The notes beneath the pieces are model-generated. The model ran no database searches. It had not been told where the DNA came from and worked only from the letters and a program-made list of their open reading frames with translations. The translations under genes were made by a program, and so were the position numbers. This document shows, piece after piece, positions 9,385-64,000 of a stretch of 64,000 nt of DNA (position 1 is its first letter; each line of letters opens with the position of its first letter). This DNA comes from a virus: positions 32,001 to 96,000 of IMG/VR virus record IMGVR_UViG_3300012953_000013, one strand, 5' to 3'.

Positions 9385-9398
9385 CTCCTTATAGTACT

Positions 9399-9736: not shown

Positions 9737-9739
9737 TAA

Positions 9740-11352: not shown

Positions 11353-11718
11353 TTAGAACTCCCAAAAGATTTTTTAATTACAACTAAATATATAGCAGAG
11401 CTTACAATTATGCTAACAACGACCTGCTCGATTATTCTCACTGCTCGGCTAGGTTTTCTAAGATATTTCTTTTTTCTTCTCAAACACAAAGATCACCTCT
11501 GGCATTTACAATTACAATTAGTTAACAGCGAATTTTTTGGTGGTAAATCATGAGATTGAACCCACCACCAAACAAAAATTGCTAACACTAAAGAGATCAA
11601 TGCTAGTAAAGGACTTTGCGGGATTAAAGAATGTAAGTGAAACGACTTTTTTCTTTTTTCTCGCATGTTGATCTCTTGTTTTATGCATAAGAGATTATAT
11701 TAAAAAACCAAGCTTTTT

Positions 11719-12186: not shown

Positions 12187-12210
12187 ATGAAAACTCCCTA
12201 CTTTTTCTAA

Positions 12211-13056
12211 TTATTCAGGAGAGAATCTATATTTCGGCTCTATTTCAAACATTTGCGGTTCTACAGAATCATCAAGAGTTTTTAACCATTCTATTTCTTC
12301 AGAAGCAGCTTCTGGATTATTAAACGCTTTCCACCAACATGTTACATTTGGATCCCATCGATACCTTCTTTTCTTAAGCTCTGAATTTTTATCTCTAGGG
12401 CTTCCCATTGCAAAAACTCGATAGTCTGGACTGGATGCGGTTTCAACCAATTCTTGAATTTTATTATTTTTTCTCAGAACATGAATCATAGCATCAACGT
12501 CATTTGCTGCTTGGTGGGAGTCATACCAGAAACCCGTCCAAGCACACAAAACTTCTAAAGCTCTAGATGGACGGCAAAACCCTCTCCAGAATACTTGATT
12601 CATGGAGCAAGCCCAAACGCTTTCAGTGTTTTTAAGAGAAGCCCTGTTTAACTCTTTTTCAATAAAGCCTCTGTCAAAACTCGCGTTGTGACACACTACA
12701 AAATCTGCTCTATTAAGAGTTGAGTGAACCCAATTCCAGTCTATAGATTCTCCTGATACATCTTCATCAGAAATATTTGTTAAAGACTTAATTTCTTCAC
12801 TTAGAGGAAAACCGGGATCATTATAGTATGTTTTGCTTTTTGCTATAGCAGAAAACCCAAAGGTATTTCTATTGACTAAAGCAGGCCTGATGCAAATTTG
12901 AATCACTCTATCTACTTCAGCGTTCAATCCAGTAGTTTCAACGTCCAAAAAAACTACCATATAATCATCTTCGCTTCTCTCACAAGAAGGAGGATCTAGT
13001 TTTTCAAACTTATGAATCGTTACTGTTTTTTCGCCTTCAACCGCTAAATGCTTCAA
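12211..13056 (-). CDS. DEDDh 3'-5' exonuclease (DNA Pol III epsilon-like)
   Basis: LDVETTG, HNASFD and HQAANDV (Exo I-III). Confidence 0.9.
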   Translation of the reverse strand: MKHLAVEGEKTVTIHKFEKLDPPSCERSEDDYMVVFLDVETTGLNAEVDRVIQICIRPALVNRNTFGFSAIAKSKTYYNDPGFPLSEEIKSLTNISDEDVSGESIDWNWVHSTLNRADFVVCHNASFDRGFIEKELNRASLKNTESVWACSMNQVFWRGFCRPSRALEVLCAWTGFWYDSHQAANDVDAMIHVLRKNNKIQELVETASSPDYRVFAMGSPRDKNSELKKRRYRWDPNVTCWWKAFNNPEAASEEIEWLKTLDDSVEPQMFEIEPKYRFSPE

Positions 13057-13340
13057 TTTTCATACTCCTCGTCTAGTCTAGCTTGTTCTTTAATCCCCAT
13101 CAGTAGTGATTGTTCGAGCAAGCTAAAAAGCTGTTCTCTGTTATATTCTGAAATGTATTCTTGGCCGTCGCAAAATCTTTTCAAATTTTCAGTTAGAGAA
13201 GAATCTAAATCAATTAAAATATTGTTCAAATTCTCTACTAGCATATCTACTTTTTCGTCATCCCAATCACAAGCTTCTAAAATAGCAGTTTCGTTGTGAA
13301 GCATCGATATTTGTGACATCAAATATTGTATGGGATTCAT
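13053..13340 (-). CDS. Hypothetical protein
   Basis: 95-aa acidic ORF overlapping the exonuclease start. Confidence 0.6.
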   Translation of the reverse strand: MNPIQYLMSQISMLHNETAILEACDWDDEKVDMLVENLNNILIDLDSSLTENLKRFCDGQEYISEYNREQLFSLLEQSLLMGIKEQARLDEEYEN

Positions 13341-13342
13341 TT

Positions 13343-13540
13343 TTACTCATGCAGCGGCATTAAAAGGTTAATCGATATTGTTGTTTCAGTTCCATCATCA
13401 AACTTGATGTGGGCTTCTGTTTTAAGGTCAGAAGTTCCGCCAACAAACCAAGCTTTTGGCTTTTCTCTATGTAAGGAGAGAACTGTGGCTTTTACCCTCA
13501 TGTCGCTAAAAAGCGTTACTCTATCACCTGGTTTAATCAT
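13343..13540 (-). CDS. Small hypothetical protein (SH3-like pattern)
   Basis: KPGDRV...ATV...AHIKFDDG. Confidence 0.6.
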   Translation of the reverse strand: MIKPGDRVTLFSDMRVKATVLSLHREKPKAWFVGGTSDLKTEAHIKFDDGTETTISINLLMPLHE

Positions 13541-13582
13541 ATTAATATCCTATAAGTTATTTTAAGTTTGTACAAGAAATTG

Positions 13583-14443
13583 TCAAAAGATACTCAAATA
13601 TCTTTCTCCGCGGTCGCACAACATGGTGACTACAGACTTGCTTGGCTTGTTTTCTTTAACCCACCTTTCACTGGCAAGTATGTTTGCTCCGCTACTAATA
13701 CCAACGAGAATCCCTGTTTCTCGAGAGAATTTTTTTGCTCTGTCGATTGCGTCTTGAGTTTTTACCACTAAGACTTCGTTCATGTCTTCAGCTTTTGCTA
13801 AGAAATCTTTTCCATCACTTATTCCTTGAATTCCATGAGGAGATTCTGCAGGTACTACCATGCATATTTTAGTGTCTGGACACTCTCCATAGATGTTTCT
13901 CTGAACATATTGGCGTACACCTTCAATAGTTCCCCCGGTGCCAGAACCATGAATAAACGCTCCCCACTCTTCACCTAAGTTCTCTAGTTGGCAACTTATT
14001 TCTCTAGCTGTAATTGTTCTATGACACTCTATATTATCAGGGTTACTAAACTGGTCAGGACTCCAAGCATTTAAGTTTGATTTCATAAAATCATCCCGCA
14101 TTTCGATCGCTTTTTCAAAATCGCTGGGCGGGGCATCGATTATTTTAGCACCATAAGATTTCATCATTTGACGACGTTCTTCTGACATATTGCTCGGCAT
14201 AAATATATAACACTTTAATCCAAGAGAAGCAGCTATAGCACTAAGAGCAATTCCCGTATTTCCGCTAGTTGCTTCGCAGAGCACAGTATTTTCTCTTATT
14301 TCACCATAGTGCTGGGCTTTCTTTACGACATAGAAAACCATCCTGTCTTTCACAGAACCTGTAGGGTTATATGTTTCTAACTTAGCATAAATCTTATCTG
14401 AAATTTTTATGAGAGGCGTATTGCCCGTAATCTTCTCAAACAT
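13583..14443 (-). CDS. cysK: Cysteine synthase (PLP-dependent, CysK/CysM family)
   Basis: AKLE..NPTGSVKDR (PLP lysine), EATSGNTG, GSGTGGT, GISSG, CDRGERYLS. Confidence 0.92.
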   Translation of the reverse strand: MFEKITGNTPLIKISDKIYAKLETYNPTGSVKDRMVFYVVKKAQHYGEIRENTVLCEATSGNTGIALSAIAASLGLKCYIFMPSNMSEERRQMMKSYGAKIIDAPPSDFEKAIEMRDDFMKSNLNAWSPDQFSNPDNIECHRTITAREISCQLENLGEEWGAFIHGSGTGGTIEGVRQYVQRNIYGECPDTKICMVVPAESPHGIQGISDGKDFLAKAEDMNEVLVVKTQDAIDRAKKFSRETGILVGISSGANILASERWVKENKPSKSVVTMLCDRGERYLSIF

Positions 14444-52251: not shown

Positions 52252-53233
52252 ACCCCCACCAAGAAAAAGTCTTTTCCAGACCGCTTATTAAACTATATTT
52301 TGGGAAGAACCCTAATTCTCTCTCTGCTTTTTTAGTACATGCTAAAGTGTGTTTTACGTCTCCAGGGCGAACTGGAGCATTTACAATCTCAACGCCAGGA
52401 AACTTTTCTTTAAAAATATCTAAAATATCATTATTTGAATAAGATTTTCCTGTACCTATATTAATTCTATCACCACAGAAATTTTGTTCACGAATAGCTG
52501 CTAAAATATTTGCCTCAGCAACATCTTCTACAAAAACCATATCTCTAGTTTGAGTGCCATCGCCATCACTTCTTAATGGCAAACCCTTTTTAACTTTATC
52601 GCACCAAGAAACAACAGCAGTCGAGTAAGGAGAATCACCGTATTGGTTAGGACCAAATACGTTAAAATATCTTAGACAAGCAATATCTAAATCATAGGCC
52701 TTAGAATAAAGCCGAGCCCATTCTTCTACATTTAATTTCTGAAGTGCATAAGGACTATTGGGATTTTTCCCGTGATCTTCTGTTGTGGGGAGAGACCACG
52801 GATCTCCATATACAGAGCAGCTTGAAGAAAATACGATCCTTTTGACATTTCCAATAGAGTGGGTAAACAATTGGATTGTTTTCATAAAATTTTCGTGTGT
52901 AGTTTCTACGGGATTCTGAATGGAGTACTCAACTCGGGGATTTGCAGCGCAGTGAAAAATCACGTCATATCTTTGGTCTACGATTCTTCTTATTACTTCT
53001 TGACTTACAAAATCTCCAACTAAAACTAAAATTTGGTCTGGAAAATTCTTGACTTGTTGTTCAAAAATATGCCCCATTTGAGTCGGTACTGTTCTAAAAG
53101 AGTGATCATCTAAGAAAGCATAATCACCATTCGACATGTCATCTACAATCTCAACTTCCCAGCCGTTATCTACTAATTTTTTTGAAATACATGACCCGAT
53201 AAATCCACAACCACCAGTTACAAGCGCTCGCAT
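52241..53233 (-). CDS. NAD-dependent epimerase/dehydratase (extended SDR)
   Basis: TGGCGFIG, SSCSVYG, YALQK, LRYFNVFGP, RDMVFVEDVA. Confidence 0.92.
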   Translation of the reverse strand: MRALVTGGCGFIGSCISKKLVDNGWEVEIVDDMSNGDYAFLDDHSFRTVPTQMGHIFEQQVKNFPDQILVLVGDFVSQEVIRRIVDQRYDVIFHCAANPRVEYSIQNPVETTHENFMKTIQLFTHSIGNVKRIVFSSSCSVYGDPWSLPTTEDHGKNPNSPYALQKLNVEEWARLYSKAYDLDIACLRYFNVFGPNQYGDSPYSTAVVSWCDKVKKGLPLRSDGDGTQTRDMVFVEDVAEANILAAIREQNFCGDRINIGTGKSYSNNDILDIFKEKFPGVEIVNAPVRPGDVKHTLACTKKAERELGFFPKYSLISGLEKTFSWWGFDE

Positions 53234-54396
53234 AATACAATTTCCTCCTTCAAGTTATTTTGCATTAAAAAACTTTCTTCTGCCAATTCTAAACCGCCAT
53301 TTAAATATTCAACTACTTGAGTTGTCATATCTCGAGCTGTACATGTTGGAACATTTTGCGCTATTACATTCAACTGTTTTCTATCCGCCATTTCAAAATC
53401 ATGGGGTAAACCCATCATATGCAATAACTCTCTTATTGACATTCCTCTATCTTCTTTGGGATGAACAAGATGAGTAAGAGTTCTTCCAACTATTGCGTTT
53501 GTTCTGTTGTAGTAATATCCCGGAGAAGCGTCCATAAATCTTCCGCCAGACTGAACTTTTTTATAAATAGCTCGAAGCCTGCGATGTTCGGCAGTTTCTT
53601 CTATTCCTCTTTTCTCGATCCATTCAATACACTCTTTTAGTAATTCATTTTCAGCTAAATAAGAAAATATTGAATGAATAGAACCTGAGTCGTTATTTTT
53701 AACAAAATGCTCATGAGTTACACCTAGATGCTGTAATACAAAAGCATACGAATCAAAGTTTTCTGAAATTTTTCCTTCGATATTAAATTGATCTTGTAGT
53801 GAAGCTTCAGCTGGGATCTCTTCAATATAATCTGCAAAAGACGGCATTGGGGTATTGAAATAATTCAAGAGTGGCGGATTTGAATCTCTCCAGAAAAAAT
53901 AAAATGTCCTCACCCTTCTTTGCGGGATGCCATGACGCTGAGTATCTGTCTTATAGAGAGAAAAGGTGTATCCATGCTCTCTAGCTAGACCTTTTAATTT
54001 ATCTCGTACGTACGCGCCCGAATTTGTAAAAAGGCCGGGGGCATTCTCGCCCCAAAAAACTCTTGGACGAACCTGACCCAAAACGGTCCTTGCAGATTCA
54101 TACATCCAATAATTCTTTCCCTCTCTTGTATCTTTGCTTCTAGAAGTATTAAGCTGGCTCAGTCCAGCACATGGACAAACCGAATTTATAAAATCTATAT
54201 CACCACCAGGAATTTTGCCACCTTCATCTAAAACAATTCTTGGAACATCTTCCCAGTAATCTGTAAGATATTTTTCATTTGCTCCAAAAGCAGAATAACT
54301 TAAGTGGTATTCTGGTTTTTTATTTGTCGCTTTATAACACCCTATGGCGCTTCCTCCGACCAGAGGAATAATAGTTCCCCACTTTAAGTTATCCAT
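53218..54396 (-). CDS. Divergent C5-cytosine DNA methyltransferase
   Basis: Motif IV CPC, VI ENA, VIII QRRVR, IX R.SIRE, X IAQNV; motif I degenerate (IPLVGG). Confidence 0.75.
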   Translation of the reverse strand: MDNLKWGTIIPLVGGSAIGCYKATNKKPEYHLSYSAFGANEKYLTDYWEDVPRIVLDEGGKIPGGDIDFINSVCPCAGLSQLNTSRSKDTREGKNYWMYESARTVLGQVRPRVFWGENAPGLFTNSGAYVRDKLKGLAREHGYTFSLYKTDTQRHGIPQRRVRTFYFFWRDSNPPLLNYFNTPMPSFADYIEEIPAEASLQDQFNIEGKISENFDSYAFVLQHLGVTHEHFVKNNDSGSIHSIFSYLAENELLKECIEWIEKRGIEETAEHRRLRAIYKKVQSGGRFMDASPGYYYNRTNAIVGRTLTHLVHPKEDRGMSIRELLHMMGLPHDFEMADRKQLNVIAQNVPTCTARDMTTQVVEYLNGGLELAEESFLMQNNLKEEIVLCERL

Positions 54397-55264: not shown

Positions 55265-56133
55265 TCACCAACCTTATAATCGAATAACGAATAGTCGTCA
55301 CCATATAAAAACAAAAATACACTTTGAAAGCTTTGTGAAAACTCGCTTAGTGAAAAAGATTCTTTTTTAGATAATGAATATAGCTTTTTATTCTCTACAG
55401 AGAGCCCACGCTTGTACGACTCTTGATTTATTATATTTTTTTCTAAAAGCCTCTCTAATAGATTTTCTTTTTCTTCTAATTTAAAAACTTCAACAGTGGG
55501 ATCTACATAAAGTCTAGAAGGAGTGGGATTACCACCCCCGTGATTTATTTTATGGAACTTATGTTTCAAAAAACTATATAAAAAATTCTCTAGAATAGAT
55601 GATGAATACTTTATGCCTGAAATTTCTTCCCAAGCTGCAGCTAAAACCCTATGTTTATGAATCATATTAGCGTTGCGATCTTCAGATATTAGAGTTGTCA
55701 ATTTCATAAAACTTTTTTGTAGTTCTTCTGGTTTTAAAATAATATCTTTAGGGTAAGAGATACCAAGTTCAGAAAACACTAAATCAATATAATTTAGAAT
55801 AACCCAGTTATATTCGTGCTCTATCCCGTTAATTTGCATCTCCAAAACTTCATATAATCTCTCCATGTAGAGATCACCGTTTGTAGACATCCACATATTG
55901 CAGTGAGATACGATCCTGTCAATCGGGTTTCTAACTAAAGTAAATTTAAATTCGCACTCTTGTATTGCAGGAAAATTTCCCCAACATATTCTCGGTACAT
56001 GCGGAATCCCGCCCACTTCTGCTGGCAAATACTCCCAGTTATTGTCTGTCAAAAGTTTTTTTACAGATGTACCGCCACATTTAGGGATATGAGCAAAAAA
56101 TATTTTTTCATTATCTCTAATAAACGTTGGCAT
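55261..56133 (-). CDS. Sulfotransferase family 2 protein (tandem paralog)
   Basis: FAHIPKCGGTS; VRNPIDRIVS. Confidence 0.8.
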   Translation of the reverse strand: MPTFIRDNEKIFFAHIPKCGGTSVKKLLTDNNWEYLPAEVGGIPHVPRICWGNFPAIQECEFKFTLVRNPIDRIVSHCNMWMSTNGDLYMERLYEVLEMQINGIEHEYNWVILNYIDLVFSELGISYPKDIILKPEELQKSFMKLTTLISEDRNANMIHKHRVLAAAWEEISGIKYSSSILENFLYSFLKHKFHKINHGGGNPTPSRLYVDPTVEVFKLEEKENLLERLLEKNIINQESYKRGLSVENKKLYSLSKKESFSLSEFSQSFQSVFLFLYGDDYSLFDYKVGD

Positions 56134-57638
56134 TACAGTGCTCGATAAATTTTATCTTCTTTAGCGACGACTCCCTTTTTTACTAACTTCTGGAGAATCA
56201 TCCAACTTTCTTTCCAAGTTCCGTTTTGCTTATAGTGAACCAAACCCTTAGATTCAATTACCTTAGCAACCTCAGCGTGTTTACAAGCTCCACCAAGGCT
56301 ATTCATTATTGAAAGTATTTCAAGCTCTTTATTTGTAGCTGAAAAATCTAAACCAGTAGATTCAGACGGTGGTACAGTTGTCACTTCAGGACCTGAAGGT
56401 TCGGGGAGAGATTCTTGTTCCGGAACTTTTGATTCTAGGTCTGGAACACTATCTTCTTTCATAAATCCAAGCTTTTGCATTATGGATTTTGGCGTAATAA
56501 TCATTTTAACTTCCTCTTTTGAAATTGGGGCTGAAGCCCTTCGATTAGCAAGTTTCTTGTCTTCTCTAAGCTTTCTGTAAACACCAAACTGACAACAAGA
56601 AATTTCGCAACCAAAATTTGTAAAATATCCAAGCTCTGAAACTTTTTTCATATAGTAATCTGATTTATCAGAGCTCTTTAAATCAAAAAAACTGTTTTGA
56701 TGACGTCTTATAGCATTAATAAGCTTTTTTCCAACTTTGTCGTTAATCGAATGACCGCGATGTTCATAAAACCAGTTTATTGCATTCATCGCACCGACTC
56801 CAGGAACCACATAATCGTCATCTTCATCAATGTTTCCCGGCATTCCCTCAAATATTAAATTACCAACTTCTGGCATACGAGCCAAGTTACAGCTAAAGTG
56901 ATAACCGTAATAATTTCCAATCCCTTTATATGAATTTAGAAATTTAAATGACTCTTCCATCGTTGGCTTAGTTTTATAAAATTCAACCCATTGAGGGCCC
57001 AAAAAAGTAAACCAAAATAAAATATCTGATGGTCTAAGCATTCTTTTGGACCGATCGATGGCTGATGTTTTCTCCAAAATGTCAATTGGTGATCCTACAC
57101 TTCTAGCGTAGTTTCTAGCTGAGGTTTGTAAGCTGGTCCTAAGCTCAGTTGTTCCATAGATTTTTTCTTTATTTTTAACTACTTCTTCTATGTTTACGCA
57201 GAGTTTCTCTAGATATTTTGGATCATTGATAAACTTTTTATATACAACAAAATCATCTCCTGTACCCTCAACCATCATTTTAAGGGTCTTCGATGGCCCA
57301 TAGAATTTCACAATTGCAGCGTTAATAAGCTTATCTTCAAAAGTTGCTTTGGGGTTATAGAATAGGTTCTCGTTTAACCAGATAATCTCATCGTGAAAGC
57401 TACGGTTAGGGTGGAAGTAGGGAACTGACTTTCCATCAACTATAAACCCAAGCTTATACAAAAGAACTTTGTTTGGTTCGTGTTGAAACGTATCAAATGT
57501 GCAAGACTTTGCAAACCTAACAAGATATTCTCTTCGATTCAACTCTTTAATAAAATGAACAAAATCATCTTTCTTATACTGAGGGATTTCATCGAAGAGT
57601 TCTTCGTCTGTATATTTTAAAAGCTCTCTATTGCTCAT
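56133..57638 (-). CDS. aGPT-Pplase1 / 5-hmdU DNA kinase-type helical protein with C-terminal winged helix
   Basis: YFHPNR..D, LINAAI, E....L....GIG.YY (HhH), D...V.PGVGA, E...CQF..Y.K; last ~70 aa look like a wHTH. Confidence 0.65.
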   Translation of the reverse strand: MSNRELLKYTDEELFDEIPQYKKDDFVHFIKELNRREYLVRFAKSCTFDTFQHEPNKVLLYKLGFIVDGKSVPYFHPNRSFHDEIIWLNENLFYNPKATFEDKLINAAIVKFYGPSKTLKMMVEGTGDDFVVYKKFINDPKYLEKLCVNIEEVVKNKEKIYGTTELRTSLQTSARNYARSVGSPIDILEKTSAIDRSKRMLRPSDILFWFTFLGPQWVEFYKTKPTMEESFKFLNSYKGIGNYYGYHFSCNLARMPEVGNLIFEGMPGNIDEDDDYVVPGVGAMNAINWFYEHRGHSINDKVGKKLINAIRRHQNSFFDLKSSDKSDYYMKKVSELGYFTNFGCEISCCQFGVYRKLREDKKLANRRASAPISKEEVKMIITPKSIMQKLGFMKEDSVPDLESKVPEQESLPEPSGPEVTTVPPSESTGLDFSATNKELEILSIMNSLGGACKHAEVAKVIESKGLVHYKQNGTWKESWMILQKLVKKGVVAKEDKIYRAL

Positions 57639-58047
57639 GCAAATCCTCTAAGTGCCTTCTGTTTTCTTTAGCAACGTGAGGGTTGTTAACATGAATCACT
57701 TTCGTTCCAATATTCCAGGTTTCTACTTCATTTAATTTTCTTTCTATCTCAGCTTTTTGAACTTCATCATCTTCAAAAAAATATTGAACGCTGAGTCCTG
57801 CTCTATGGAGAATCTTAATAGTTTCTCCTTTGTGCCACCCTGAACTCTGACGAGTTTTTTCTGAGTAGTCACATTGATTAAAGAAAACTGGGTTATTAAT
57901 TCCATTACGACGAAGAAAAGCCAAAGTTTCAGCTTCTTCTTCATAACTACGACCAGTGATAATTACATCTCCTGGGCCTGGACGAATTCCACAAACTCCA
58001 TCGCCAAGATGGATAACGCCATCAATATCAAAACCGTTAACCTTCAT
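57628..58047 (-). CDS. HAD-superfamily phosphatase
   Basis: FDIDGV (motif I), ITGR (II), FEDD (IV). Confidence 0.8.
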   Translation of the reverse strand: MKVNGFDIDGVIHLGDGVCGIRPGPGDVIITGRSYEEEAETLAFLRRNGINNPVFFNQCDYSEKTRQSSGWHKGETIKILHRAGLSVQYFFEDDEVQKAEIERKLNEVETWNIGTKVIHVNNPHVAKENRRHLEDLHEQ

Positions 58048-58756
58048 TGAATTCTCCTCTTTTTCTTATAAAAAACTGAGTGCCTAAAATCATCATGTCT
58101 AAAGACCTTGTGTCACACCAAACCCTATAATGAGGAGATAGAGCCTGGCCGTTTCCTGGGTTGAGCATTTCGCTTAAACCAATTAGTTTCGTATTCCCAG
58201 TCTTCCAAGCAATTAAAGTATTCTCGTGTGGAGGAGTCAAACCAATAGACATTGCAAATTGATTGACTGCTTCTACAGCTCCCCAATCTGATTTTTGTGT
58301 ATAATCATCTCCAGTTATCCAACCGCCCGGCTTAAGTTTTGGCCACCAACTCTCAAGATCTATTTTTACAGCTTCATACCTATGGTCGCCATCAATGTAA
58401 ATCCAGTCAAAATAATTGTTAGAAAAATTCTTAGCAGCGTTTTCAGAAAAATCTCTGTATACAGAAATCTTGGTTTCATCGCTGCTCATCTCATCAGCCC
58501 AATTTTTTACTTTTTGAAACCTAGCATCTTGTTCTTCTTGAGAGTCTTTTGCGTGTTGGTCGTGCTGATCTGTTTGCTGCACCCAAGGGTCTACTAAGTG
58601 AATTTCTGACGGGTTTTTGGAAAAAATCTTGCGAGAAAATGCGCCATTGAAAACACCTATTTCTGCACACTTAGCTCCCTGGGCTATTTTTTCTAAAACC
58701 CTGTCTTCGTAGACTCTTTCTCCTGGATTTTCTTTTTTGAAATTATCTCTAAGCAT
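58037..58756 (-). CDS. Class I SAM methyltransferase (Methyltransf_24-like)
   Basis: EIGVFNG, VDPW, IYIDGDH.YE, LKPGG..TGDDY. Confidence 0.85.
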   Translation of the reverse strand: MLRDNFKKENPGERVYEDRVLEKIAQGAKCAEIGVFNGAFSRKIFSKNPSEIHLVDPWVQQTDQHDQHAKDSQEEQDARFQKVKNWADEMSSDETKISVYRDFSENAAKNFSNNYFDWIYIDGDHRYEAVKIDLESWWPKLKPGGWITGDDYTQKSDWGAVEAVNQFAMSIGLTPPHENTLIAWKTGNTKLIGLSEMLNPGNGQALSPHYRVWCDTRSLDMMILGTQFFIRKRGEFNEG

Positions 58757-59468
58757 TATCTTTCCTAAAGAAAGTATAGTCTAAAACTTTCGTTGTTCCA
58801 TACATTAAAATTGGATGTTCTACCTTCTTCCACTTAGACTCTGGAAAAAACAGACTAGGATATTGATCAAAAGGAGAACGAGTGTTATGAAATTCAATGC
58901 CAACAATTTCAACAAAATCCGGAATTTTTGGAATAGAATCTAGGATATCGTACTCTTTGCCTTCAATATCAATCTTTAATATTTCTGGTCGGTATTTTTC
59001 TAAAAGACTAGAAAAAGAAATCCCGGGGACTGAAATAGTAGTAGAAGATGCATTCCTTCTCCGAAGAGTTGATGAAGAAACAGAATTACGCTTGGATTTA
59101 GCGTAGTGAAAAACTACTTCATTTTCATCTTCTTCACACACTGCGGCGTTAATACACTCTACACCCGGGGCATTAATTTCCAAAAGTTGAAAATTATGAG
59201 GGCAGGGCTCGAGTGCAATAATCTTCTTTGCGCCGTTATCCAAACACATCTTAGCAAATCCACCAATATTGGCCCCAAGGTCTAATACGGTTTTGCCTTC
59301 AACTGGAATGCATGTGTAATTGTCTATACACTCCTTAATTGAACTCAAATCAAATGTATCGGGACGATACCACATCCCTTTTCTTGAGTTCCATTTTATT
59401 TCGCACTCTTCGAAGGCTGGTACAGCTGGATTAAACCGCATGCCCGTCTGTTCGTGGATTTTAGCCAT
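58749..59468 (-). CDS. FkbM-family SAM methyltransferase
   Basis: VLDLGANIG, ALEP, LKIDIEG.EY. Confidence 0.88.
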   Translation of the reverse strand: MAKIHEQTGMRFNPAVPAFEECEIKWNSRKGMWYRPDTFDLSSIKECIDNYTCIPVEGKTVLDLGANIGGFAKMCLDNGAKKIIALEPCPHNFQLLEINAPGVECINAAVCEEDENEVVFHYAKSKRNSVSSSTLRRRNASSTTISVPGISFSSLLEKYRPEILKIDIEGKEYDILDSIPKIPDFVEIVGIEFHNTRSPFDQYPSLFFPESKWKKVEHPILMYGTTKVLDYTFFRKDNA

Positions 59469-60658
59469 TAATCTACCTCTTTGTTATGAGATGGACAAAT
59501 CTTATAAAGCTCTTCAGCGTCGTAAGAAGATGTCTGCCTCTTTGTGAATCTGGTTAATTGTCGCTCTGAAAGTGCATCACATTCATAAAGCGTTTCGCTA
59601 AACATAAGTTGTTGTGGAGGAGTTTTTTGCGTAAATGCTGACGGGCCTCGAAGAGCACCAACAATCCCCATTTCTCTAGCGGTCTTGAGATAACGAACTG
59701 CATCAATAACAACTCCGCCAGAGTTTGGAGAATCAATTACAGAGAGTCGAGCATCAAAAGTTACCGGAGCGCCAAGAAACCCTTCCATCTCTACTCTAAA
59801 ATTAGCAACCTTGTTATCTCCATAATAGCGAATGTATTCTGAAGGTCCCGCATGGAGAAATGACTCATCTGGGTCGACTCCCCGAATTACATGTTGAGAG
59901 CGAATAACGTTTTCCTTAGATACCTTTTTATACTTGAGGCGCGATTGATCGACCATGTTCAAGAAATCAGTGTTTCCGCCAACATTTCTCTGAATATGAG
60001 CTTTAACATTTAAGCCGCGAGCAAAGGCCAGTTCTTGTAGCATTTGAGAAAGAATAGAAGCTCCAAACTGTGATTTCATATCATCACCAATTAATGGAAT
60101 TCCAGCATCGATAAACTTTTGTTCCCACTCTGGATTAGAAGCAATAAATACGGGAATGCAGTTTAGTAGAGAAACACCAGCATCTAGACAAGCTTGGGCG
60201 TAATACTCTGTAGCTTTCTGAGACCCAACTGGAAGATAATTGATTAGAATATCAACCTTGCGATCTTCTAGTATCTGAACCACATCTACGGGCTCTTCAT
60301 TTGAAACTCTGAAGGCTTCATCATCTGGATAATCACTCATCAAGCTTGGTACCCCATCAAGCACTGGACCCATTTGAACTATTGGACCATCAGGTACATT
60401 CGCTTCGTATTCTGGAGTACAGTTTGGCTTAGCCCACATTGCTTCCCTAAAACACTTACCGACTTTTCGCTTATCTACGTCAAATGCAGCCACAACCTCA
60501 ATATTCGCAACTGAGTATCCGCCAATTCGAGACTTCATTACTCCGTCTCTTTCTTGGCCGGCTGTATATCCAGCATAGTATGTTAAACCTTGATAAAGCG
60601 AATTTGCGCAGTTTCCGACGCCTACAATTGCTACTCTAATATTTTGCTTTTTACTCAT
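59468..60658 (-). CDS. ino1: myo-Inositol-1-phosphate synthase (inositol-3-phosphate synthase)
   Basis: VAIVGVGNCA, AAFDVD..KVG, NYLPVGS, N.IPVFIA, GDD.KSQFGA, NVGGNTDF.NM, DSPNSGG. Confidence 0.93.
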   Translation of the reverse strand: MSKKQNIRVAIVGVGNCANSLYQGLTYYAGYTAGQERDGVMKSRIGGYSVANIEVVAAFDVDKRKVGKCFREAMWAKPNCTPEYEANVPDGPIVQMGPVLDGVPSLMSDYPDDEAFRVSNEEPVDVVQILEDRKVDILINYLPVGSQKATEYYAQACLDAGVSLLNCIPVFIASNPEWEQKFIDAGIPLIGDDMKSQFGASILSQMLQELAFARGLNVKAHIQRNVGGNTDFLNMVDQSRLKYKKVSKENVIRSQHVIRGVDPDESFLHAGPSEYIRYYGDNKVANFRVEMEGFLGAPVTFDARLSVIDSPNSGGVVIDAVRYLKTAREMGIVGALRGPSAFTQKTPPQQLMFSETLYECDALSERQLTRFTKRQTSSYDAEELYKICPSHNKEVD

Positions 60659-60681: not shown

Positions 60682-61746
60682 TTATTCTTTATTATGTCGC
60701 GGGTTGGGTTGATTGTTAAATAAATCCCAGTAATAAGACATCGGACTCAAATGAACACTTTTTGGGCGTTCCATATATTCAAAATCAAGCTCCCCCGATT
60801 CATTCAAAAATCCCGGTGGCCACTCAAAAGTTTGCCACTTATTCTCTATTGATATTTTATCAACAGCAGCATTAAATGTATTGACTAACTTTGTTCTTTC
60901 TTCCCAAGTTCCAAAATATGGAGTCTTCTTATAATATCCAGTTTTAGGGAGCTTTCTAGAAATATTTTCTATTGGAAGAGCATGAACAATCTCAACGTTT
61001 GGAACTCCAAGAGACTTAAGCTGGTGCCCGAGCTCGATTCCCATCGCGTGGGCTTTCTCAAACGGGTTTTCTTGCCTCATGAGGTGATGGCGAATATCAA
61101 TATTCCCCATATAGAAAGTCAAGTGAGTCAAATCGCTTACTTTCATACCAGATTTTTCTTCAATAATTTCTTTTACACCGTCGCGTATAGTAGAAAAAAG
61201 AGTAAGGCCATCATTTCGGCATACAGAATAACCGGGTTTCCAAGTAGAAAAACAATGGCTATCTCCGAAACAAAGTTTTGTAGTTTCTTCAACATGATTA
61301 AACCCCGGAGTTCTTTTACAAATTTCATCAAGCTTGTTTAAGTCTAGCTGGCCGACATTAGCACTTGTGGATTTATTATGCAATCTTCCCCTGATGGTCG
61401 TTCCAATGAGCGGCATCTCATGATTCATAATGTACGTGGGGCCAGAAAACTCTTGAATTCTCTTGAATCTACGAACTACGTTATCGTCGACGCCAAAGAA
61501 AAAGTTAATTGTGCCAGCATAAGCAATCCCGGGATAAAAAATCATGGCATCATACCCTTCATAGGTATCATGGTTTCCAAGAATAGTTACGTCTGTCCAG
61601 CCTGATGAATGGAGCATATTTTTATAAAGCCATACCCAAGCTGCATTGTGGCTATGCTTTCGGGTTGGAATATTTCGCTCTAGTCCATCAATTCCGATCT
61701 TAGCATCTTTTGGAAGATCTGATGCGACTTCTAAAAATGTTTTCAC
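60682..61746 (-). CDS. Hypothetical protein with an SGNH-hydrolase-like C-terminal domain
   Basis: Start GTG at 61746 after AGGAG; GDSH, DG, GNID and SVHLSP blocks. Confidence 0.55.
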   Translation of the reverse strand: MKTFLEVASDLPKDAKIGIDGLERNIPTRKHSHNAAWVWLYKNMLHSSGWTDVTILGNHDTYEGYDAMIFYPGIAYAGTINFFFGVDDNVVRRFKRIQEFSGPTYIMNHEMPLIGTTIRGRLHNKSTSANVGQLDLNKLDEICKRTPGFNHVEETTKLCFGDSHCFSTWKPGYSVCRNDGLTLFSTIRDGVKEIIEEKSGMKVSDLTHLTFYMGNIDIRHHLMRQENPFEKAHAMGIELGHQLKSLGVPNVEIVHALPIENISRKLPKTGYYKKTPYFGTWEERTKLVNTFNAAVDKISIENKWQTFEWPPGFLNESGELDFEYMERPKSVHLSPMSYYWDLFNNQPNPRHNKE

Positions 61747-61747
61747 A

Positions 61748-62188
61748 TTAAACTCCTGTGCTGCCAAAGCCGCCAGCACCACGGGTTGTAGTTGAATAAA
61801 AAAGCTCTTTATCTGGCACTACTTTTACATCAGGATACTTGACTGGCAACAATAAAAATTGAACAATTTTTTCTCCTCCCTCTAAAGCTACCGGCTCTGT
61901 ACCAGAATTCATGAGGTGCAGATGAATTTCGCCCTGGTAGTCTTCATCAACGACGCAAGCTCCCACTGTTAACTTCTTTTTCAGAGCTACGCCACTCTTG
62001 TTGTGAGCTACAAAAGCGTAGCCTTTAGGGACATTAACTCTGATTCCAGATGGAATACAGACGTCTCCTCCTGGAGGCACGCTTGCTGATAAGCCATCAG
62101 GTACATAAAAGTCTAGACCTGCAGATCCAGGGGTTCCTCGAGTCGGCGTCTTTACTTCTCTAGTTTTTGACATTTTTATGTTTTTCAT
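61748..62188 (-). CDS. dut: Trimeric dUTPase
   Basis: SAGLD, KSG, GACVVDEDYQGEI, QFLL, RGAGGFGSTG. Confidence 0.92.
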   Translation of the reverse strand: MKNIKMSKTREVKTPTRGTPGSAGLDFYVPDGLSASVPPGGDVCIPSGIRVNVPKGYAFVAHNKSGVALKKKLTVGACVVDEDYQGEIHLHLMNSGTEPVALEGGEKIVQFLLLPVKYPDVKVVPDKELFYSTTTRGAGGFGSTGV

Positions 62189-62190
62189 TT

Positions 62191-62421
62191 TTACCCCAAC
62201 TTTGATTCTGCGGCTTCTACCATTTCTCCAAGACTGTCGTCTGAAACATCCAGCCTAGACTTAATCTTAGCAATACTAATTGCCGCTTTTACAGCTTTGA
62301 TGTCTAGCTTAGACTTATAATCATCAAATAGCTGCTTCTGCTCTTCTGCAAGAAGCTGCTTTTCCCCATCAATTCTCATAAGCTGTTCTACCAAATCTTT
62401 AATATCGTCTTGTACGCTCAT
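62191..62421 (-). CDS. DsbA/GapR (DUF2312)-like dsDNA-binding protein
   Basis: IKDLVEQLMRID.EK..L.EE.K.L....K..LD.KAVK. Confidence 0.6.
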   Translation of the reverse strand: MSVQDDIKDLVEQLMRIDGEKQLLAEEQKQLFDDYKSKLDIKAVKAAISIAKIKSRLDVSDDSLGEMVEAAESKLG

Positions 62422-62431
62422 TATTTTCTCC

Positions 62432-62629
62432 TTATTGAAACTTTACGTAATCTTTAAGCAAACTGTCAATGCTTTTAATAACTTGTTCACAAAGCACTGA
62501 AGTATGCTTCGTATTCATAACTGAAGTTGAAGAATGCTTCTCTTCAAGCCCATCATAGAATTCAATAACGTGCCTTCGAAGCTTCACCAACTTTTCAATC
62601 TCTTCATTTTTCATTACTTCTCCTTTTTT
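62432..62629 (-). CDS. Hypothetical protein
   Basis: About 65 aa; likely start MKKGEV or MKNEE. Confidence 0.55.
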   Translation of the reverse strand, partial: KKGEVMKNEEIEKLVKLRRHVIEFYDGLEEKHSSTSVMNTKHTSVLCEQVIKSIDSLLKDYVKFQ

Positions 62630-62888
62630 CATTGATGTAATTTTGCCATCCCCCAATATAAGCAACAGCGTCTAGTAAATTGTCTTCTTTAAAATTGTAA
62701 GACTGCCTAGAAAACTTGAGAGCAATCATGGCGATAAACATATCGTCCGCGGTCCAGTTTCGACCTGACATCCCACTAGCAATCATTGCAGCGCGCTCAA
62801 AACCTTCGCCCAAGGGACCATATTGACGCTCTTTTTCTTCTGAGCGATTATTGATTATTTCATCTGCTTGTTTTAGAATATTAGCCAT
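62604..62888 (-). CDS. DUF6378-like all-alpha (MazG-type) nucleotide-associated protein
   Basis: IL..A..II...R.....QYG; M.ALK.SR......DN..D...Y. Confidence 0.7.
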   Translation of the reverse strand: MANILKQADEIINNRSEEKERQYGPLGEGFERAAMIASGMSGRNWTADDMFIAMIALKFSRQSYNFKEDNLLDAVAYIGGWQNYINEKRRSNEK

Positions 62889-63759
62889 TGAAAATAACTC
62901 CCTTTATTTTGTTTACGTGATCAAATATTTCAGATTTTTCCATATCACTAGATGGAAGCTCTGCTGACAAAGATAAAAGCTTTTTATAAGTTAGATCTGG
63001 CTTTAAAACCGTTTTATCAGTTTGGGGATAATGACCACCCAAAACGCTTACATAATAATTGTCTAAAATCTTATCCATCATCTTAAAGTGTCTCTCATAA
63101 ATGTGAAAACTTCCTGCATTATGATAATATGTCCCAAGATGGAGATTCATGCCGTGATCGTTTAAGTGATTAAGCATCAACTGTTGAAAAAGAGCGAATG
63201 TAAAAACATCGTTGCAAAAACCAAAAATGGCATCATTAGATCTCATATAGACGCCCATATCCAAAACACCTTCTCTTATAAAAAACTGAATATATTGAGT
63301 ACATGGATAATCTTTAGAATTTTTTTCTTTATGATATGGCTGGTTAATTGCTATAGTTGCTCTCCTGGTGTCTGGATCGCTTACTAGCTCATTTACAACC
63401 CAATTCCATTGAGAAATATACATTTTGTTCAAAACAGGAAAAATATAAGACCCATAATTTGACTCTGCTTCGCCAAATTGGTCTTGGATATCAGCCCAAA
63501 TAGATGCAAGCTTAGATATGTTGTTTACTTTTTGGTTTGAAGATACGTACCAAAGCCACTCTGCAATAGCATAATTTATGTTAAATTTTCGAGCAGGAAC
63601 AATAATATCTAGCTGTTCAGGGTTCTTAATTTGAAAGGAAACAAATGTTCTTTCTAGCTGTTTAGAGCCCCTAGAATGAACTATATTTCCGGCCATTTTT
63701 AGTTTAGCTAGCTCTTCAACGAAAGCTTCATTTAGATTATAGTACATCATTTTTACCAC
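62881..63759 (-). CDS. Thymidylate-synthase-family enzyme with dCMP-hydroxymethylase signature
   Basis: DTRRA, DYPCT (catalytic Cys), MRSNDAIFGFCND (Asp where dUMP-specific TS has Asn), HIYERHF. Confidence 0.85.
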   Translation of the reverse strand: MVKMMYYNLNEAFVEELAKLKMAGNIVHSRGSKQLERTFVSFQIKNPEQLDIIVPARKFNINYAIAEWLWYVSSNQKVNNISKLASIWADIQDQFGEAESNYGSYIFPVLNKMYISQWNWVVNELVSDPDTRRATIAINQPYHKEKNSKDYPCTQYIQFFIREGVLDMGVYMRSNDAIFGFCNDVFTFALFQQLMLNHLNDHGMNLHLGTYYHNAGSFHIYERHFKMMDKILDNYYVSVLGGHYPQTDKTVLKPDLTYKKLLSLSAELPSSDMEKSEIFDHVNKIKGVIFNG

Positions 63760-63766
63760 CTATAGA

Positions 63767-63795
63767 ATCATACTAAAATTTACGTAATTGTTCAG
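63767..63795 (-). promoter_or_regulatory. Sigma70-like promoter for the modification operon
   Basis: CTGAAC-17 nt-TATGAT. Confidence 0.5.
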
Positions 63796-63796
63796 A

Positions 63797-64000
63797 TTAT
63801 AATTCGATTATTTTGAGCCTGTGCCACTTGGTACTACAGCCAAAATCGTTCTTATCAATTTCCGCGACGCAGAAGCTGTAGGGTTGAATTTCTGCATCTT
63901 TCGGAGTTCCCCAACAAAAGATTTTTGAAATTTTTCCAGTAGAAGCTATGCCGTTTAGAAGAAAGTAAGGCTTTTTGTTTTTCGTTAGCTTTGGCACCGC
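63797..64000 (-). CDS. 3' end of a gene running off the window; possibly the C-terminal OB-fold of a DnaE-type polymerase
   Basis: K.TKNKKPY.......G....IFCWG.....Y......FG.ST pattern; fragment only. Confidence 0.4.
   Translation of the reverse strand, partial: AVPKLTKNKKPYFLLNGIASTGKISKIFCWGTPKDAEIQPYSFCVAEIDKNDFGCSTKWHRLKIIEL

What the first reader, a model, noticed from the sequence alone, without database searches (positions are those of the whole stretch)
61748..63795. The thymidylate-synthase homolog has the cytosine-specifying Asp: the phage likely replaces C with 5-hydroxymethyl-C or a related base
Seen: MRSNDAIFGFCND. Known: the last residue aligns with Asn177 of E. coli ThyA (dUMP) but is Asp in T4 dCMP hydroxymethylase (MRSNDVVFGFRND). 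Seen: it heads an operon with a MazG-like DUF6378 protein, a DsbA-like protein and dUTPase, directly after a probable DNA polymerase fragment. Inference: pre-replicative C5 modification of dCMP, with DUF6378 or the dUTPase removing dCTP. No T4-type glucosyltransferase is present in the window, so the downstream chemistry probably differs.
Basis: partly seen in the sequence, partly recalled or inferred. Interest (0 to 1): 0.75.

Follow-up and report, generated by a model that had tools for sequence, protein, structure and literature searches.

The report
Marine phage hydroxymethyl-cytosine synthase module
This uncultured marine giant phage carries an enzyme with the same active-site fingerprint as the T4 enzyme that makes hydroxymethyl-cytosine. 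It sits in a conserved three-gene unit, and the genes that follow it differ between related phages, which suggests each lineage decorates that DNA base differently.

Summary
Window 62881-63759 (minus strand) encodes a thymidylate-synthase-fold protein containing MRSNDAIFGFCND, and its last Asp aligns with T4 gp42 Asp179 / E. coli Asn177.

All six diagnostic positions (E. coli numbering: L143D, C146, H147T, C168N, D169, N177D) match T4 and Aeromonas phage 44RR dCMP hydroxymethylases. They differ from ThyA, dUMP hydroxymethylases, the RB69 5-hydroxy-dCMP synthase and the XP12 enzyme. The genome has its own ThyX, so dTMP synthesis does not need this gene.

In 61 related viral contigs the unit TS homolog-DUF6378-dUTPase is nearly universal. 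The slot after it varies. Some relatives carry T4-type beta- or alpha-glucosyltransferase homologs there. This phage carries an SGNH-fold protein, an inositol-phosphate-synthase homolog, methyltransferases, a HAD-like protein and an M6 gp55-like protein.

- **Not supported:** the "DsbA-like" gene and "MazG-like" DUF6378.
- **Not found:** any T4-type dCTPase or dNMP kinase, even in a complete 293-kb sibling genome. Full replacement of C is therefore unproven.

The most likely function is dCMP hydroxymethylase (about 0.75-0.8). Other notes from this scan cover the downstream cluster on this same genome.

The parts
63797..64000 (-). 3' end (last 67 codons) of the PolIII-alpha (DnaE-type) replicative polymerase gene. 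The whole gene is genome 95797-99426, 1209 aa.
   Evidence: Pfam DNA_pol3_alpha 189.9 bits, finger 119.5, PHP 89, HHH_6. It lies about 3.6 kb upstream of the TS homolog in about 37 of 61 related loci.
63760..63796 (-). 37-nt intergenic gap with an AGGTGG ribosome-binding site and a weak sigma-70-like match (TGAACA-16-TATGAT).
   Evidence: The promoter match scores 9/12, and such matches are no more frequent here than in shuffles (18 found against 11.5 +/- 3.5).
62881..63759 (-). TS-fold protein, predicted dCMP 5-hydroxymethylase (T4 gp42 type). Key residues: R132, R133, D150, C153, T154, R173, S174, N175, D176, G180, D184, H219, Y221.
   Evidence: PF00303 E 3.9e-23. Best PDB matches are MilA at 7.7e-30 and T4 dCMP hydroxymethylase at 2e-20. 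Signature, family conservation, tree.
63208..63246 (-). Motif MRSNDAIFGFCND. The codon of the cytosine-specifying Asp184 is 63208-63210. Asp176 (E. coli D169) is retained.
63298..63315 (-). KDYPCT: Asp150 (E. coli L143 position, hydroxymethyl-type), catalytic Cys153 and Thr154.
   Evidence: The meaning of the residues comes from PMC13326640.
62604..62888 (-). DUF6378 protein, 94 aa. Its start overlaps the end of the TS gene by 8 nt. It is a conserved partner of the hydroxymethylase with unknown biochemical activity.
   Evidence: PF19905 41.7 bits. It lies directly downstream of the TS ortholog in about 54 of 61 loci. It occurs fused to a D-type TS homolog, to dUTPase, to PRA-PH and to a HAD hydrolase. 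The model is a four-helix fold with pLDDT 92.
62432..62665 (-). 77-aa ORF with no family. It is a lineage-specific insert.
   Evidence: No Pfam, PHROG or NCBIfam hit and no CxxC. Not found in relatives.
62191..62421 (-). 76-aa GapR-like DNA-binding protein. It is a lineage-specific insert.
   Evidence: PF10073 25 bits against a cut-off of 22.6. Not found in relatives.
61748..62188 (-). Trimeric dUTPase, third member of the conserved unit.
   Evidence: PF00692 81 bits and TIGR00576 106.9 bits, above the cut-off. All PDB matches are dUTPases and all five motifs are present.
60682..61782 (-). First gene of the variable tailoring cassette: 366-aa (probably 354-aa) protein with an N-terminal alpha/beta domain and a C-terminal SGNH/GDSL-hydrolase fold. 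Invariant motifs are GDSH and GNxD..HH.
   Evidence: Model pLDDT 89. Fold matches with Z up to 12.9 over residues 164-365. Invariant residues. It matches the N-terminal half of Aeromonas phage 44RR ORF233c.
59468..60658 (-). Myo-inositol-1-phosphate-synthase family protein.
   Evidence: PF01658 78.9 bits. TIGR03450 scores 344 bits, below the equivalog cut-off of 638.
58037..59468 (-). Two methyltransferases: FkbM type (58749-59468) and Methyltransf_24 (58037-58756).
57628..58047 (-). 139-aa HAD/PNK-phosphatase-like protein.
   Evidence: phrog_415 2.8e-8. The Pfam Hydrolase_6 hit is weak.
56133..57638 (-). 501-aa protein with a PF18723 domain (M6 gp55 type, not the P-loop kinase) and a C-terminal tail. 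It matches the C-terminal half of 44RR ORF233c.
   Evidence: PF18723 26.3 bits. phrog_17781 spans this protein and the 366-aa protein together. In M6, PF18723 maps to gp55, not to the kinase gp54. 42% identity to 44RR/31 ORF233c.

Best explanation
The gene at 62881-63759 (-) encodes a deoxycytidylate 5-hydroxymethylase of the T4 gp42 type. Cys153 attacks C6 of dCMP. Asp184 reads the cytosine N3/N4 edge, methylene-tetrahydrofolate donates the carbon, and water adds to the exocyclic methylene to give 5-hm-dCMP; Asp150 occupies the site where ThyA has the water-excluding Leu143. dTMP supply is left to the phage's own ThyX. The enzyme works within a conserved three-gene unit with a small DUF6378 protein and a standard dUTPase. 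After phosphorylation, by enzymes not identified here, hm-dCTP is incorporated by the phage PolIII-alpha replicase. The 5-hmC in DNA is then tailored by a cassette that differs between lineages. Sibling phages have T4-type alpha- or beta-glucosyltransferase homologs in that slot. This phage has an SGNH-fold protein, a MIPS homolog, methyltransferases, a HAD-like protein and an M6 gp55-like protein. Shown here: fold, residue signature, conservation, synteny and domain fusions. Inferred: substrate, product, incorporation into DNA, extent of replacement and the cassette's chemistry.
For: (1) Fold and nearest characterised relatives: PF00303 E 3.9e-23. The best PDB matches are two cytosine hydroxymethylases, MilA at 7.7e-30 and T4 dCMP hydroxymethylase at 2e-20, ahead of any true TS at 1e-15. 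It scores far below every NCBIfam ThyA equivalog cut-off.
(2) Signature D143/C146/T147/N168/D169/D177 is identical to T4 gp42 and 44RR gp42. Five verified dUMP hydroxymethylases have N177, RB69 gp48 has D169N, XP12 has N143 and ThyA has L143/N177. The meaning of these positions comes from PMC13326640, PMC8670742 and PMC5175136.
(3) The deoxyribose-type residues Arg132 and Ser174 are present, not the Lys/Ala of MilA.
(4) D143, C146, T147 and D177 are invariant in 118/118 homologs. 56 of 61 IMG/VR orthologs have the full signature.
(5) In the tree the marine clade joins T4 gp42 and RsoM2USA gp10 (support 94/93), apart from the dUMP-hydroxymethylase clade and from ThyA/XP12.
(6) ThyX is present in the same genome at 161.5 bits.
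(7) Orthologs with the same signature sit beside a T4 beta-glucosyltransferase homolog (PF09198, 72 bits, 7 loci) or an alpha-glucosyltransferase homolog (PF11440, 44 bits, 5 loci) in the slot that this phage fills with its own cassette.
(8) The cassette's 366-aa and 501-aa proteins occur fused as ORF233c only in Aeromonas T4-like phages. Those phages have gene 42 but no glucosyltransferase genes (PMC2993671).
(9) DUF6378 occurs fused to a D-type TS homolog, to dUTPase and to PRA-PH.
Against: No enzyme assay or nucleoside analysis exists for this clade, and identity to T4 gp42 is only about 33%. The tree node joining it to gp42 involves long branches and is not fully supported. No gp56-like, MazG or PRA-PH dCTPase was found in the 185-kb record. 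No gp1-like, thymidylate-kinase or dNK-type kinase was found either. A complete 293-kb and a 96%-complete sibling genome also lack them. How dCTP is excluded and how hm-dCMP is phosphorylated is therefore unexplained. A C5-cytosine DNA methyltransferase homolog in the same cluster would need unmodified C if it is a plain methylase. The position-143 rule for hydroxymethyl versus methyl products is a correlation, not a proven determinant.
Confidence: 0.77

Rival explanations
1. It is a dCMP methyltransferase like the phage XP12 enzyme, so the phage DNA carries 5-methylcytosine rather than 5-hmC.
For: Asp at position 177 also fits dCMP methylation, as shown by N177D/N229D TS mutants and XP12. A C5-methyltransferase homolog lies in the cluster.
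Against: Position 143 is Asp, as in all hydroxymethylases aligned, whereas XP12 has Asn and ThyA has Leu. XP12 groups with ThyA (99/99) far from the query. Sibling orthologs with the identical signature are followed by homologs of hmC-specific glucosyltransferases, which need a hydroxyl group.
Confidence: 0.07
2. It is a 5-hydroxy-dCMP synthase like RB69 gp48 / DLP3 gp80, giving 5-hydroxycytosine as the handle for glycosylation.
For: It has the same fold, N177D and an acidic residue at 143. MilA is also the best structural hit reported for those enzymes. Downstream glycan-type tailoring genes are present.
Against: The residue reported as diagnostic, D169N, is absent: the query and 103/118 relatives keep Asp. 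G173 and Y209 are kept, whereas RB69 gp48 has V and F. No arabinose or UDP-sugar pathway of the RB69 type was seen.
Confidence: 0.06
3. It acts on dUMP, either as a dUMP hydroxymethylase or as an odd thymidylate synthase. The neighbouring dUTPase and the dCMP deaminase feed it, as in SPO1 or phiW-14, and the PF18723 protein marks a thymidine-hypermodification pathway.
For: dUTPase, dCMP deaminase and thymidine kinase are in the same gene run. A PF18723 domain, otherwise known from hmU clusters, is present.
Against: Asp, not Asn, is at position 177 in every member, while all five verified dUMP hydroxymethylases keep Asn. The query falls in a separate tree clade. No P-loop 5-HMUDK or aGPT-Pplase2 homolog was found (phmmer with M6 gp54 and gp51). 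ThyX already covers dTMP. T4 itself combines gp42 with a dCMP deaminase.
Confidence: 0.05
4. The enzyme makes hm-dCMP, but the phage only partly substitutes C or uses the nucleotide for something other than bulk DNA replacement. This would explain why no dCTPase or dedicated kinase is present.
For: No dCTPase or dNMP kinase of any family searched was found, even in complete sibling genomes. A C5-cytosine methyltransferase homolog is retained.
Against: The tight conserved unit next to the replicase gene, and the tailoring cassettes that include DNA glucosyltransferase homologs, argue for a DNA fate. DUF6378 is unassigned and could supply the missing step. Host kinases may accept hm-dCMP.
Confidence: 0.3

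Closest known systems
T4 gp42 deoxycytidylate 5-hydroxymethylase (EC 2.1.2.8; PDB 1B5E/1B49) and its 44RR homolog
   Same: TS fold with an identical six-residue active-site signature (D143, C146, T147, N168, D169, D177). The deoxyribose-type Arg and Ser are also the same. It is a phage gene in a replication and nucleotide-metabolism region. Relatives are followed by alpha/beta-glucosyltransferase homologs.
   Different: Only about 33% identity, and 292 aa against 246 aa with a different C-terminal extension. It is paired with DUF6378 and a trimeric dUTPase instead of gp56 (dCTPase/dUTPase) and gp1 (dNMP kinase). The replicase is PolIII-alpha rather than a family-B polymerase. No glucosyltransferase is present in this phage.
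MilA CMP 5-hydroxymethylase of Streptomyces rimofaciens (PDB 5B6D/5JNH)
   Same: Best sequence match among solved structures (E 7.7e-30), with Asp at both the 143 and 177 positions.
   Different: MilA has Lys133/Ala176, which select ribose. The phage protein has Arg132/Ser174, the deoxyribose-type pair. MilA also serves antibiotic biosynthesis, not DNA.
dUMP hydroxymethylases of SPO1, SP10, M6, ViI and phiW-14, with their thymidine-hypermodification clusters
   Same: TS homolog with Asp143. A post-replicative tailoring cluster lies next to it, and a PF18723 (M6 gp55-type) protein is present.
   Different: Those enzymes keep Asn177 and act on dUMP. Their clusters include a P-loop 5-HMUDK and aGPT-Pplase2, neither of which was found here.
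RB69 gp48 / DLP3 gp80 5-hydroxy-dCMP synthases (Lee et al. 2026, PMC13326640)
   Same: Cytosine-type TS homolog (N177D, acidic residue at 143) that supplies a hydroxyl handle for later tailoring.
   Different: They carry D169N, which the query lacks. Their product has the oxygen directly on C5, and their clusters encode arabinose pathways.
MetaGPA metavirome TS homologs with Asp177, and the 5hmC carbamoyltransferase clusters (PMC8670742)
   Same: Uncultured-virus TS homologs in which Asp177 marks contigs with modified cytosine. They co-occur with NTP pyrophosphatase, deaminase and a variable tailoring enzyme.
   Different: The partner there is PRA-PH and a carbamoyltransferase. Here the partner is DUF6378 and a different cassette.

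Membership tests
dCMP 5-hydroxymethylase (T4 gp42 type) | Thymidylate-synthase fold with the catalytic Cys (E. coli C146) | tested here: met
   PF00303 at 82.4 bits. Cys153 is aligned and invariant in 118/118 homologs.
dCMP 5-hydroxymethylase (T4 gp42 type) | Asp in place of ThyA Asn177 (cytosine specificity) | tested here: met
   Asp184 aligns with T4 D179 and E. coli N177. It is invariant in the family.
dCMP 5-hydroxymethylase (T4 gp42 type) | Acidic residue in place of ThyA Leu143 (admits water, giving a hydroxymethyl product) | tested here: met
   Asp150. The rule comes from PMC13326640 and is correlative.
dCMP 5-hydroxymethylase (T4 gp42 type) | Asp169 retained (distinguishes it from 5-hydroxy-dCMP synthases) | tested here: met
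   Asp176.
dCMP 5-hydroxymethylase (T4 gp42 type) | Deoxyribose-selecting Arg126'/Ser167 (against Lys/Ala in MilA) | tested here: met
   Arg132 and Ser174.
dCMP 5-hydroxymethylase (T4 gp42 type) | Catalysis: dCMP + CH2-THF + H2O gives 5-hm-dCMP + THF | not testable with these tools
   Needs an enzyme assay.
T4-style hmC replacement pathway | dCTPase (gp56 / all-alpha NTP pyrophosphatase) and hm-dCMP kinase (gp1) | tested here: not met
   phmmer with gp56 and gp1 gave no hit. PF03819, PF01503, PF02223, PF01712 and gp1 are absent from the record and from six sibling records, including one 100% complete genome. Distant or novel analogues cannot be excluded.
T4-style hmC replacement pathway | hmC-DNA glucosyltransferase (alpha-gt PF11440 / beta-gt PF09198) | tested here: not met
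   None found in this genome. Homologs are present in sibling loci L080 (72 bits) and L077 (44 bits).
Canonical thymidylate synthase ThyA | Asn177 and Leu143, and a score above the NCBIfam equivalog cut-offs | tested here: not met
   The query has D184 and D150. Its best equivalog score is 70 bits against a cut-off of 327.
5-hydroxy-dCMP synthase (RB69 gp48 type) | D169N substitution | tested here: not met
   The query keeps Asp176.
dUMP hydroxymethylase (SPO1 gp29 type) | Asn177 retained together with an acidic residue at 143 | tested here: not met
   The query has Asp at 177, while all five reference enzymes have Asn.
MazG / all-alpha NTP pyrophosphatase (claimed for DUF6378) | Sequence-profile or fold similarity to MazG, PRA-PH or gp56 | tested here: inconclusive
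   hhalign probability is 0.5% against T4 gp56 and 0.3% against PRA-PH. The Foldseek best E is 1.1, with MazG/DCTPP1 rows only at E 8-10. The best VIA Z is 5.7, on generic helical matches. The model is a four-helix protein with conserved acidic and basic residues.
DsbA/thioredoxin-like (claimed for a small ORF) | Thioredoxin-fold family match and a CxxC motif | tested here: not met
   No family hit for the 77-aa ORF, which has a single Cys. The 76-aa ORF is GapR-like.
Trimeric dUTPase | Five dUTPase motifs and a family score above the cut-off | tested here: met
   TIGR00576 at 106.9 bits against a cut-off of 102.55. All 60 PDB matches listed (68 found) are dUTPases.

The most novel reading that the evidence does not exclude
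The TS homolog-DUF6378-dUTPase unit is a portable hmC-synthesis module that works without T4's gp56 and gp1. DUF6378 would be a new kind of dNTP-pool factor, either a dCTP-removing enzyme or a channeling adaptor. The cassette behind the module in this phage would convert 5-hmC in DNA into a cytosine hypermodification not yet described, possibly carrying an inositol-derived, acylated, methylated or sulfated group. That cassette comprises an SGNH-fold protein, a MIPS homolog, a HAD-like protein, O-methyltransferases, an M6 gp55-like protein and sulfotransferases. It occupies the slot that sibling phages fill with T4-type glucosyltransferase homologs.
Probability: 0.35. Interest if true: 0.85.

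Novelty: new variant of a known kind. Interest (0 to 1): 0.62.

Why it matters
5-hmC replacement is the textbook phage defence against restriction, but it has been worked out almost only in T-even coliphages. This family has several hundred members in marine metagenomes (462 proteins at E <= 0.001). It sits in giant uncultured phages with a PolIII-type replicase and lacks the T4 accessory enzymes.

It offers two things that can be tested directly:
- **DUF6378.** This is a tiny, extremely conserved protein (80-97% identity across more than 100 clusters). It is fused in nature to each enzyme of the pathway and so marks an unknown step in making or channeling hm-dCTP.
- **A natural swap experiment.** The same synthase is followed in different lineages by alpha-gt, by beta-gt, by nothing, or by several unrelated cassettes. 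This points to undescribed cytosine hypermodifications and to enzymes that could be used on hmC DNA. It also bears on how marine viral DNA behaves in sequencing and restriction-based methods.

Tried and rejected
- **Nucleotide search.** blastn of the region against 50,697 phage records gave no match.
- **DUF6378.** PDB phmmer found nothing. Foldseek and VIA-align gave only generic helical matches. hhalign against T4 gp56 and PRA-PH gave probabilities under 1%. The ESM Atlas had no usable hit. tblastn found only mycobacteriophage copies, mislabelled 'phosphofructokinase'.
- **Complex prediction.** Complex prediction of the TS dimer with DUF6378 returned no verdict (score 0.00). This is neither support nor evidence against binding.
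- **T4 proteins against all ORFs of the record.** phmmer with T4 gp56, gp1, alpha-gt, beta-gt and Dam, and with M6 gp51, gp54, gp55, gp56 and gp59, gave no hits except those from 44RR ORF233c.
- **Family searches.** Pfam MazG, PRA-PH, Thymidylate_kin and dNK, and T4 gp1, gave nothing in the record or in six sibling records.
- **366-aa protein against beta-glucosyltransferases.** hhalign gave weak probabilities of 3.9% and 19.7%, sharing only an NFFGG-like motif. I do not count this as evidence. PDB phmmer for this protein gave nothing useful.
- **The 501-aa protein as a 5-hmdU DNA kinase.** Rejected. PF18723 maps to M6 gp55, not to the kinase gp54, and the protein has no Walker A motif.
- **The dUTPase as a disguised dCTPase or dCTP deaminase.** No support; it looks like a standard dUTPase.
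Full report
**What is there.** The window is bases 32001-96000 of a 184,866-bp IMG/VR virus record, estimated 71% complete. Almost all genes lie on the minus strand. At 62881-63759 (-) there is a 292-aa ORF. Its likely true start is the ATG at 63750, eight bases after an AGGTGG site, which gives the 288-289 aa seen in database copies. It matches Pfam Thymidylat_synt (E 3.9e-23) and PHROG thymidylate-synthase families. It scores far below every NCBIfam ThyA equivalog cut-off, 70 bits against 327.

**Neighbouring genes.** Upstream is a 1209-aa PolIII-alpha (DnaE-type) polymerase gene, of which the window holds only the last 67 codons. Downstream, in order, are:
- a DUF6378 protein whose start overlaps the TS stop by 8 nt;
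- a 77-aa ORF without any family;
- a 76-aa GapR-like protein;
- a trimeric dUTPase.

There is no DsbA-like gene. The two small ORFs are absent from relatives.

**Which substrate and product.** Among solved structures the best matches are the two known cytosine hydroxymethylases: MilA at 7.7e-30 and T4 dCMP hydroxymethylase at 2e-20. They rank ahead of any true thymidylate synthase, the best of which is 1e-15. The HMMER alignments put the motif's last Asp opposite T4 Asp179.

I fetched reference enzymes of known specificity from phage records and aligned them. In E. coli numbering:

| Enzyme | Residues |
|---|---|
| Query | D143, C146, T147, N168, D169, D177 |
| T4 gp42 and 44RR gp42 | identical to the query |
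| Five verified dUMP hydroxymethylases (SPO1, SP10, M6, ViI, phiW-14) | D143 but N177 |
| RB69 gp48 (5-hydroxy-dCMP synthase) | E143, N169, D177 |
| XP12 enzyme (5-methylcytosine phage) | N143, D177 |
| ThyA | L143, N177 |

The meaning of these positions is taken from the literature:
- N177D switches the enzyme to dCMP.
- An acidic residue at 143 goes with hydroxymethyl products.
- D169N marks 5-hydroxy-dCMP synthases (PMC13326640; PMC8670742).
- Arg/Ser rather than the Lys/Ala of MilA selects deoxyribose (PMC5175136). The query has Arg132 and Ser174.

D143, C146, T147 and D177 are invariant in 118 of 118 close homologs. 56 of 61 orthologs in IMG/VR contigs have the full six-residue signature.

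A maximum-likelihood tree joins the marine clade to T4 gp42 and Ralstonia phage RsoM2USA gp10. Support is 94/93, on long branches, so this is only moderate evidence. That group is separate from the dUMP-hydroxymethylase clade and from ThyA plus XP12. The genome also encodes ThyX (161.5 bits, genome 107214-107837), so dTMP synthesis does not depend on this gene. An earlier scan note gave the lead for that check.

**The conserved unit.** The search for related loci returned 61 viral contigs with orthologs at 38-59% identity. tblastn of the window's proteins against them gave the following:
- DUF6378 lies directly after the TS ortholog in about 54 loci.
- The dUTPase follows in about 50.
- PolIII-alpha lies about 3.6 kb upstream in about 37.

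DUF6378 is remarkable in two ways. First, it is far more conserved than the enzyme it accompanies: the best 120 database clusters are 81-100% identical to it, against at most 83% for the nearest non-identical TS homolog. Second, in an exhaustive profile search it appears fused to each enzyme of this nucleotide step:
- a TS homolog with the same D143/D169/D177 residues (P0390);
- dUTPase (P0385, P0394);
- PRA-PH NTP pyrophosphatase (P0458, P0466, P0467);
- a HAD hydrolase (P0472).

Its AlphaFold model is a confident four-helix protein (pLDDT 92). Conserved residues are R15, E18, R21, K58, R61, K67, D69, D73 and Y77. I found no significant fold or profile match to MazG, PRA-PH, T4 gp56 or anything else. 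Its tie to the pathway is therefore strong, but its activity is unknown.

Two readings remain open for DUF6378. It could be a very divergent NTP pyrophosphatase that removes dCTP. Or it could be an adaptor that couples the NTPase and the hydroxymethylase, in the spirit of the T4 dNTP-synthetase complex.

The dUTPase itself looks ordinary.

**What is missing.** T4 needs gp56 (dCTPase) and gp1 (hm-dCMP kinase) to replace C completely. phmmer with both proteins found nothing in the record. Pfam searches for MazG, PRA-PH, thymidylate kinase and deoxynucleoside kinase found nothing either. Six sibling records gave the same result, including a 293-kb genome with terminal repeats (100% complete, same cassette as this window) and a 96%-complete one. 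Synthesis of hm-dCMP is therefore well supported. The steps to hm-dCTP and the exclusion of dCTP are inferred, and complete replacement is not shown.

**The variable slot.** The genes after the dUTPase differ between lineages:

| Content of the slot | Loci |
|---|---|
| T4 beta-glucosyltransferase homolog (PF09198, 72 bits), inserted between DUF6378 and dUTPase | 7 |
| T4 DNA alpha-glucosyltransferase homolog (PF11440, 44 bits) with an APH-type kinase | 5 |
| Sulfotransferase, amidinotransferase-like enzyme and APH-type kinase | 3 |
| Argininosuccinate synthase and a lyase | 1 |
| Nothing; the run goes straight on to a DHH phosphoesterase and dCMP deaminase | 4 |
| The window's cassette | about 13 |

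All of these orthologs share the query's signature. Finding homologs of the two T4 hmC-DNA glucosyltransferases behind the same synthase is the best comparative evidence that the product ends up as 5-hmC in DNA. It also indicates that the slot holds tailoring enzymes.

**This phage's cassette.** It starts with a 366-aa protein. Its model (pLDDT 89) has a C-terminal SGNH/GDSL-hydrolase fold (Z up to 12.9 over residues 164-365) with invariant GDSH and GNxD..HH motifs. Then follow:
- a MIPS-family protein;
- FkbM-type and Methyltransf_24 methyltransferases;
- a small HAD-like protein;
- a 501-aa protein with a PF18723 domain;
- two sulfotransferase-family proteins;
- a C5-methyltransferase homolog;
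- an epimerase;
- thymidine kinase;
- a cupin;
- a DHH protein;
- a third sulfotransferase-family protein;
- dCMP deaminase.

Despite its name, PF18723 maps in phage M6 to gp55 and not to the kinase gp54. gp55 was dispensable in the M6 in vitro reconstitution (PMC8989533). The 501-aa protein has no Walker A motif.

The 366-aa and 501-aa proteins are the two halves of one 795-aa protein, ORF233c. Among 50,697 phage records this protein occurs only in 19 Aeromonas T4-like phages. Those phages carry genes 42 and 56 but no glucosyltransferases, and their hmC tailoring has long been an open question (PMC2993671). 44RR gp42 has the same signature as the query.

This makes the pair a good candidate for an alternative hmC-tailoring enzyme, but the chemistry is not established. 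I found no paper linking inositol synthase to phage DNA modification.

**Verdict.** The enzyme type is known, and TS homologs with Asp177 in metaviromes have been described (PMC8670742, PMC13326640). I found no description in the papers searched of three things:
- the three-gene unit with DUF6378;
- the absence of gp56/gp1-type partners;
- the lineage-specific cassettes in one slot.

Other notes of this scan treat the downstream cluster on this same genome. I used them as leads and re-tested what I cite.

Noticed in passing
L104 (Stenotrophomonas phage Mendera NC_048804, locus 8101-13627): A 54%-identical homolog of the window's MIPS-like protein sits inside a 7-deazaguanine DNA-modification cluster (GTP cyclohydrolase, MIPS, QueC-like, QueE-like) in Menderavirus phages. 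Phage MIPS homologs therefore recur next to DNA base-modification genes of different kinds.
   Followed up: partly
L089:8046-10590: In one sibling contig the slot after the TS ortholog holds an argininosuccinate synthase (192 and 184 bits) and a fumarate-lyase-family enzyme (171 bits). This may be a different, amino-acid-type tailoring of the modified cytosine.
   Followed up: no
L091:10858-15102 (also L092, L078): Another slot variant holds a Sulfotransfer_3 protein, an arginine-deiminase/amidinotransferase-like protein and an APH-type kinase.
   Followed up: no
TS homolog family (P0002-P0120); one IMG/VR ortholog: 15 of 118 close homologs have Cys instead of Asp at the E. coli D169 position, which is the position whose change to Asn marks 5-hydroxy-dCMP synthases. 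This may be a further product variant.
   Followed up: no
L032 (Maribacter phage Molly_1, locus 4554-7047): Molly's TS homolog has Asp143 but Asn177, the uracil type, and it sits directly after a 'beta glucosyl transferase' and sugar-nucleotide enzymes. This suggests glycosylated hydroxymethyl-uracil rather than cytosine.
   Followed up: partly
L031 (Enterococcus phage VPE25, locus 5998-8356): VPE25 has a D143/D177-type TS homolog followed by a dUTPase and a beta-glucosyltransferase, with a PolIII-alpha gene nearby. This is a cultured phage with the same logic as the window, but without DUF6378.
   Followed up: partly
L029:4286-8266 (Aeromonas phage 44RR2.8t): The fused 795-aa ORF233c lies next to a phage-encoded sodium:solute (glucose-type) symporter homolog. 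This may supply a substrate for the modification.
   Followed up: no
window 62604-62888: DUF6378 is 80-97% identical across more than 100 database clusters from marine samples, far more conserved than the neighbouring enzyme. RefSeq labels its mycobacteriophage homologs 'phosphofructokinase', which looks spurious for an 80-90-aa helical protein.
   Followed up: partly
window 8045-8455 (-): A 136-aa ORF here is homologous (phmmer 3.7e-35) to the 151-aa ORF that lies between the APH-like kinase and the alpha-glucosyltransferase homolog in sibling locus L077.
   Followed up: no
window 53218-54396 (-): A C5-cytosine DNA methyltransferase homolog lies within the same gene run. It also follows the alpha-glucosyltransferase cassette in siblings (L077, L079, L100). 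Its substrate in a phage that pre-makes hmC is unclear.
   Followed up: no
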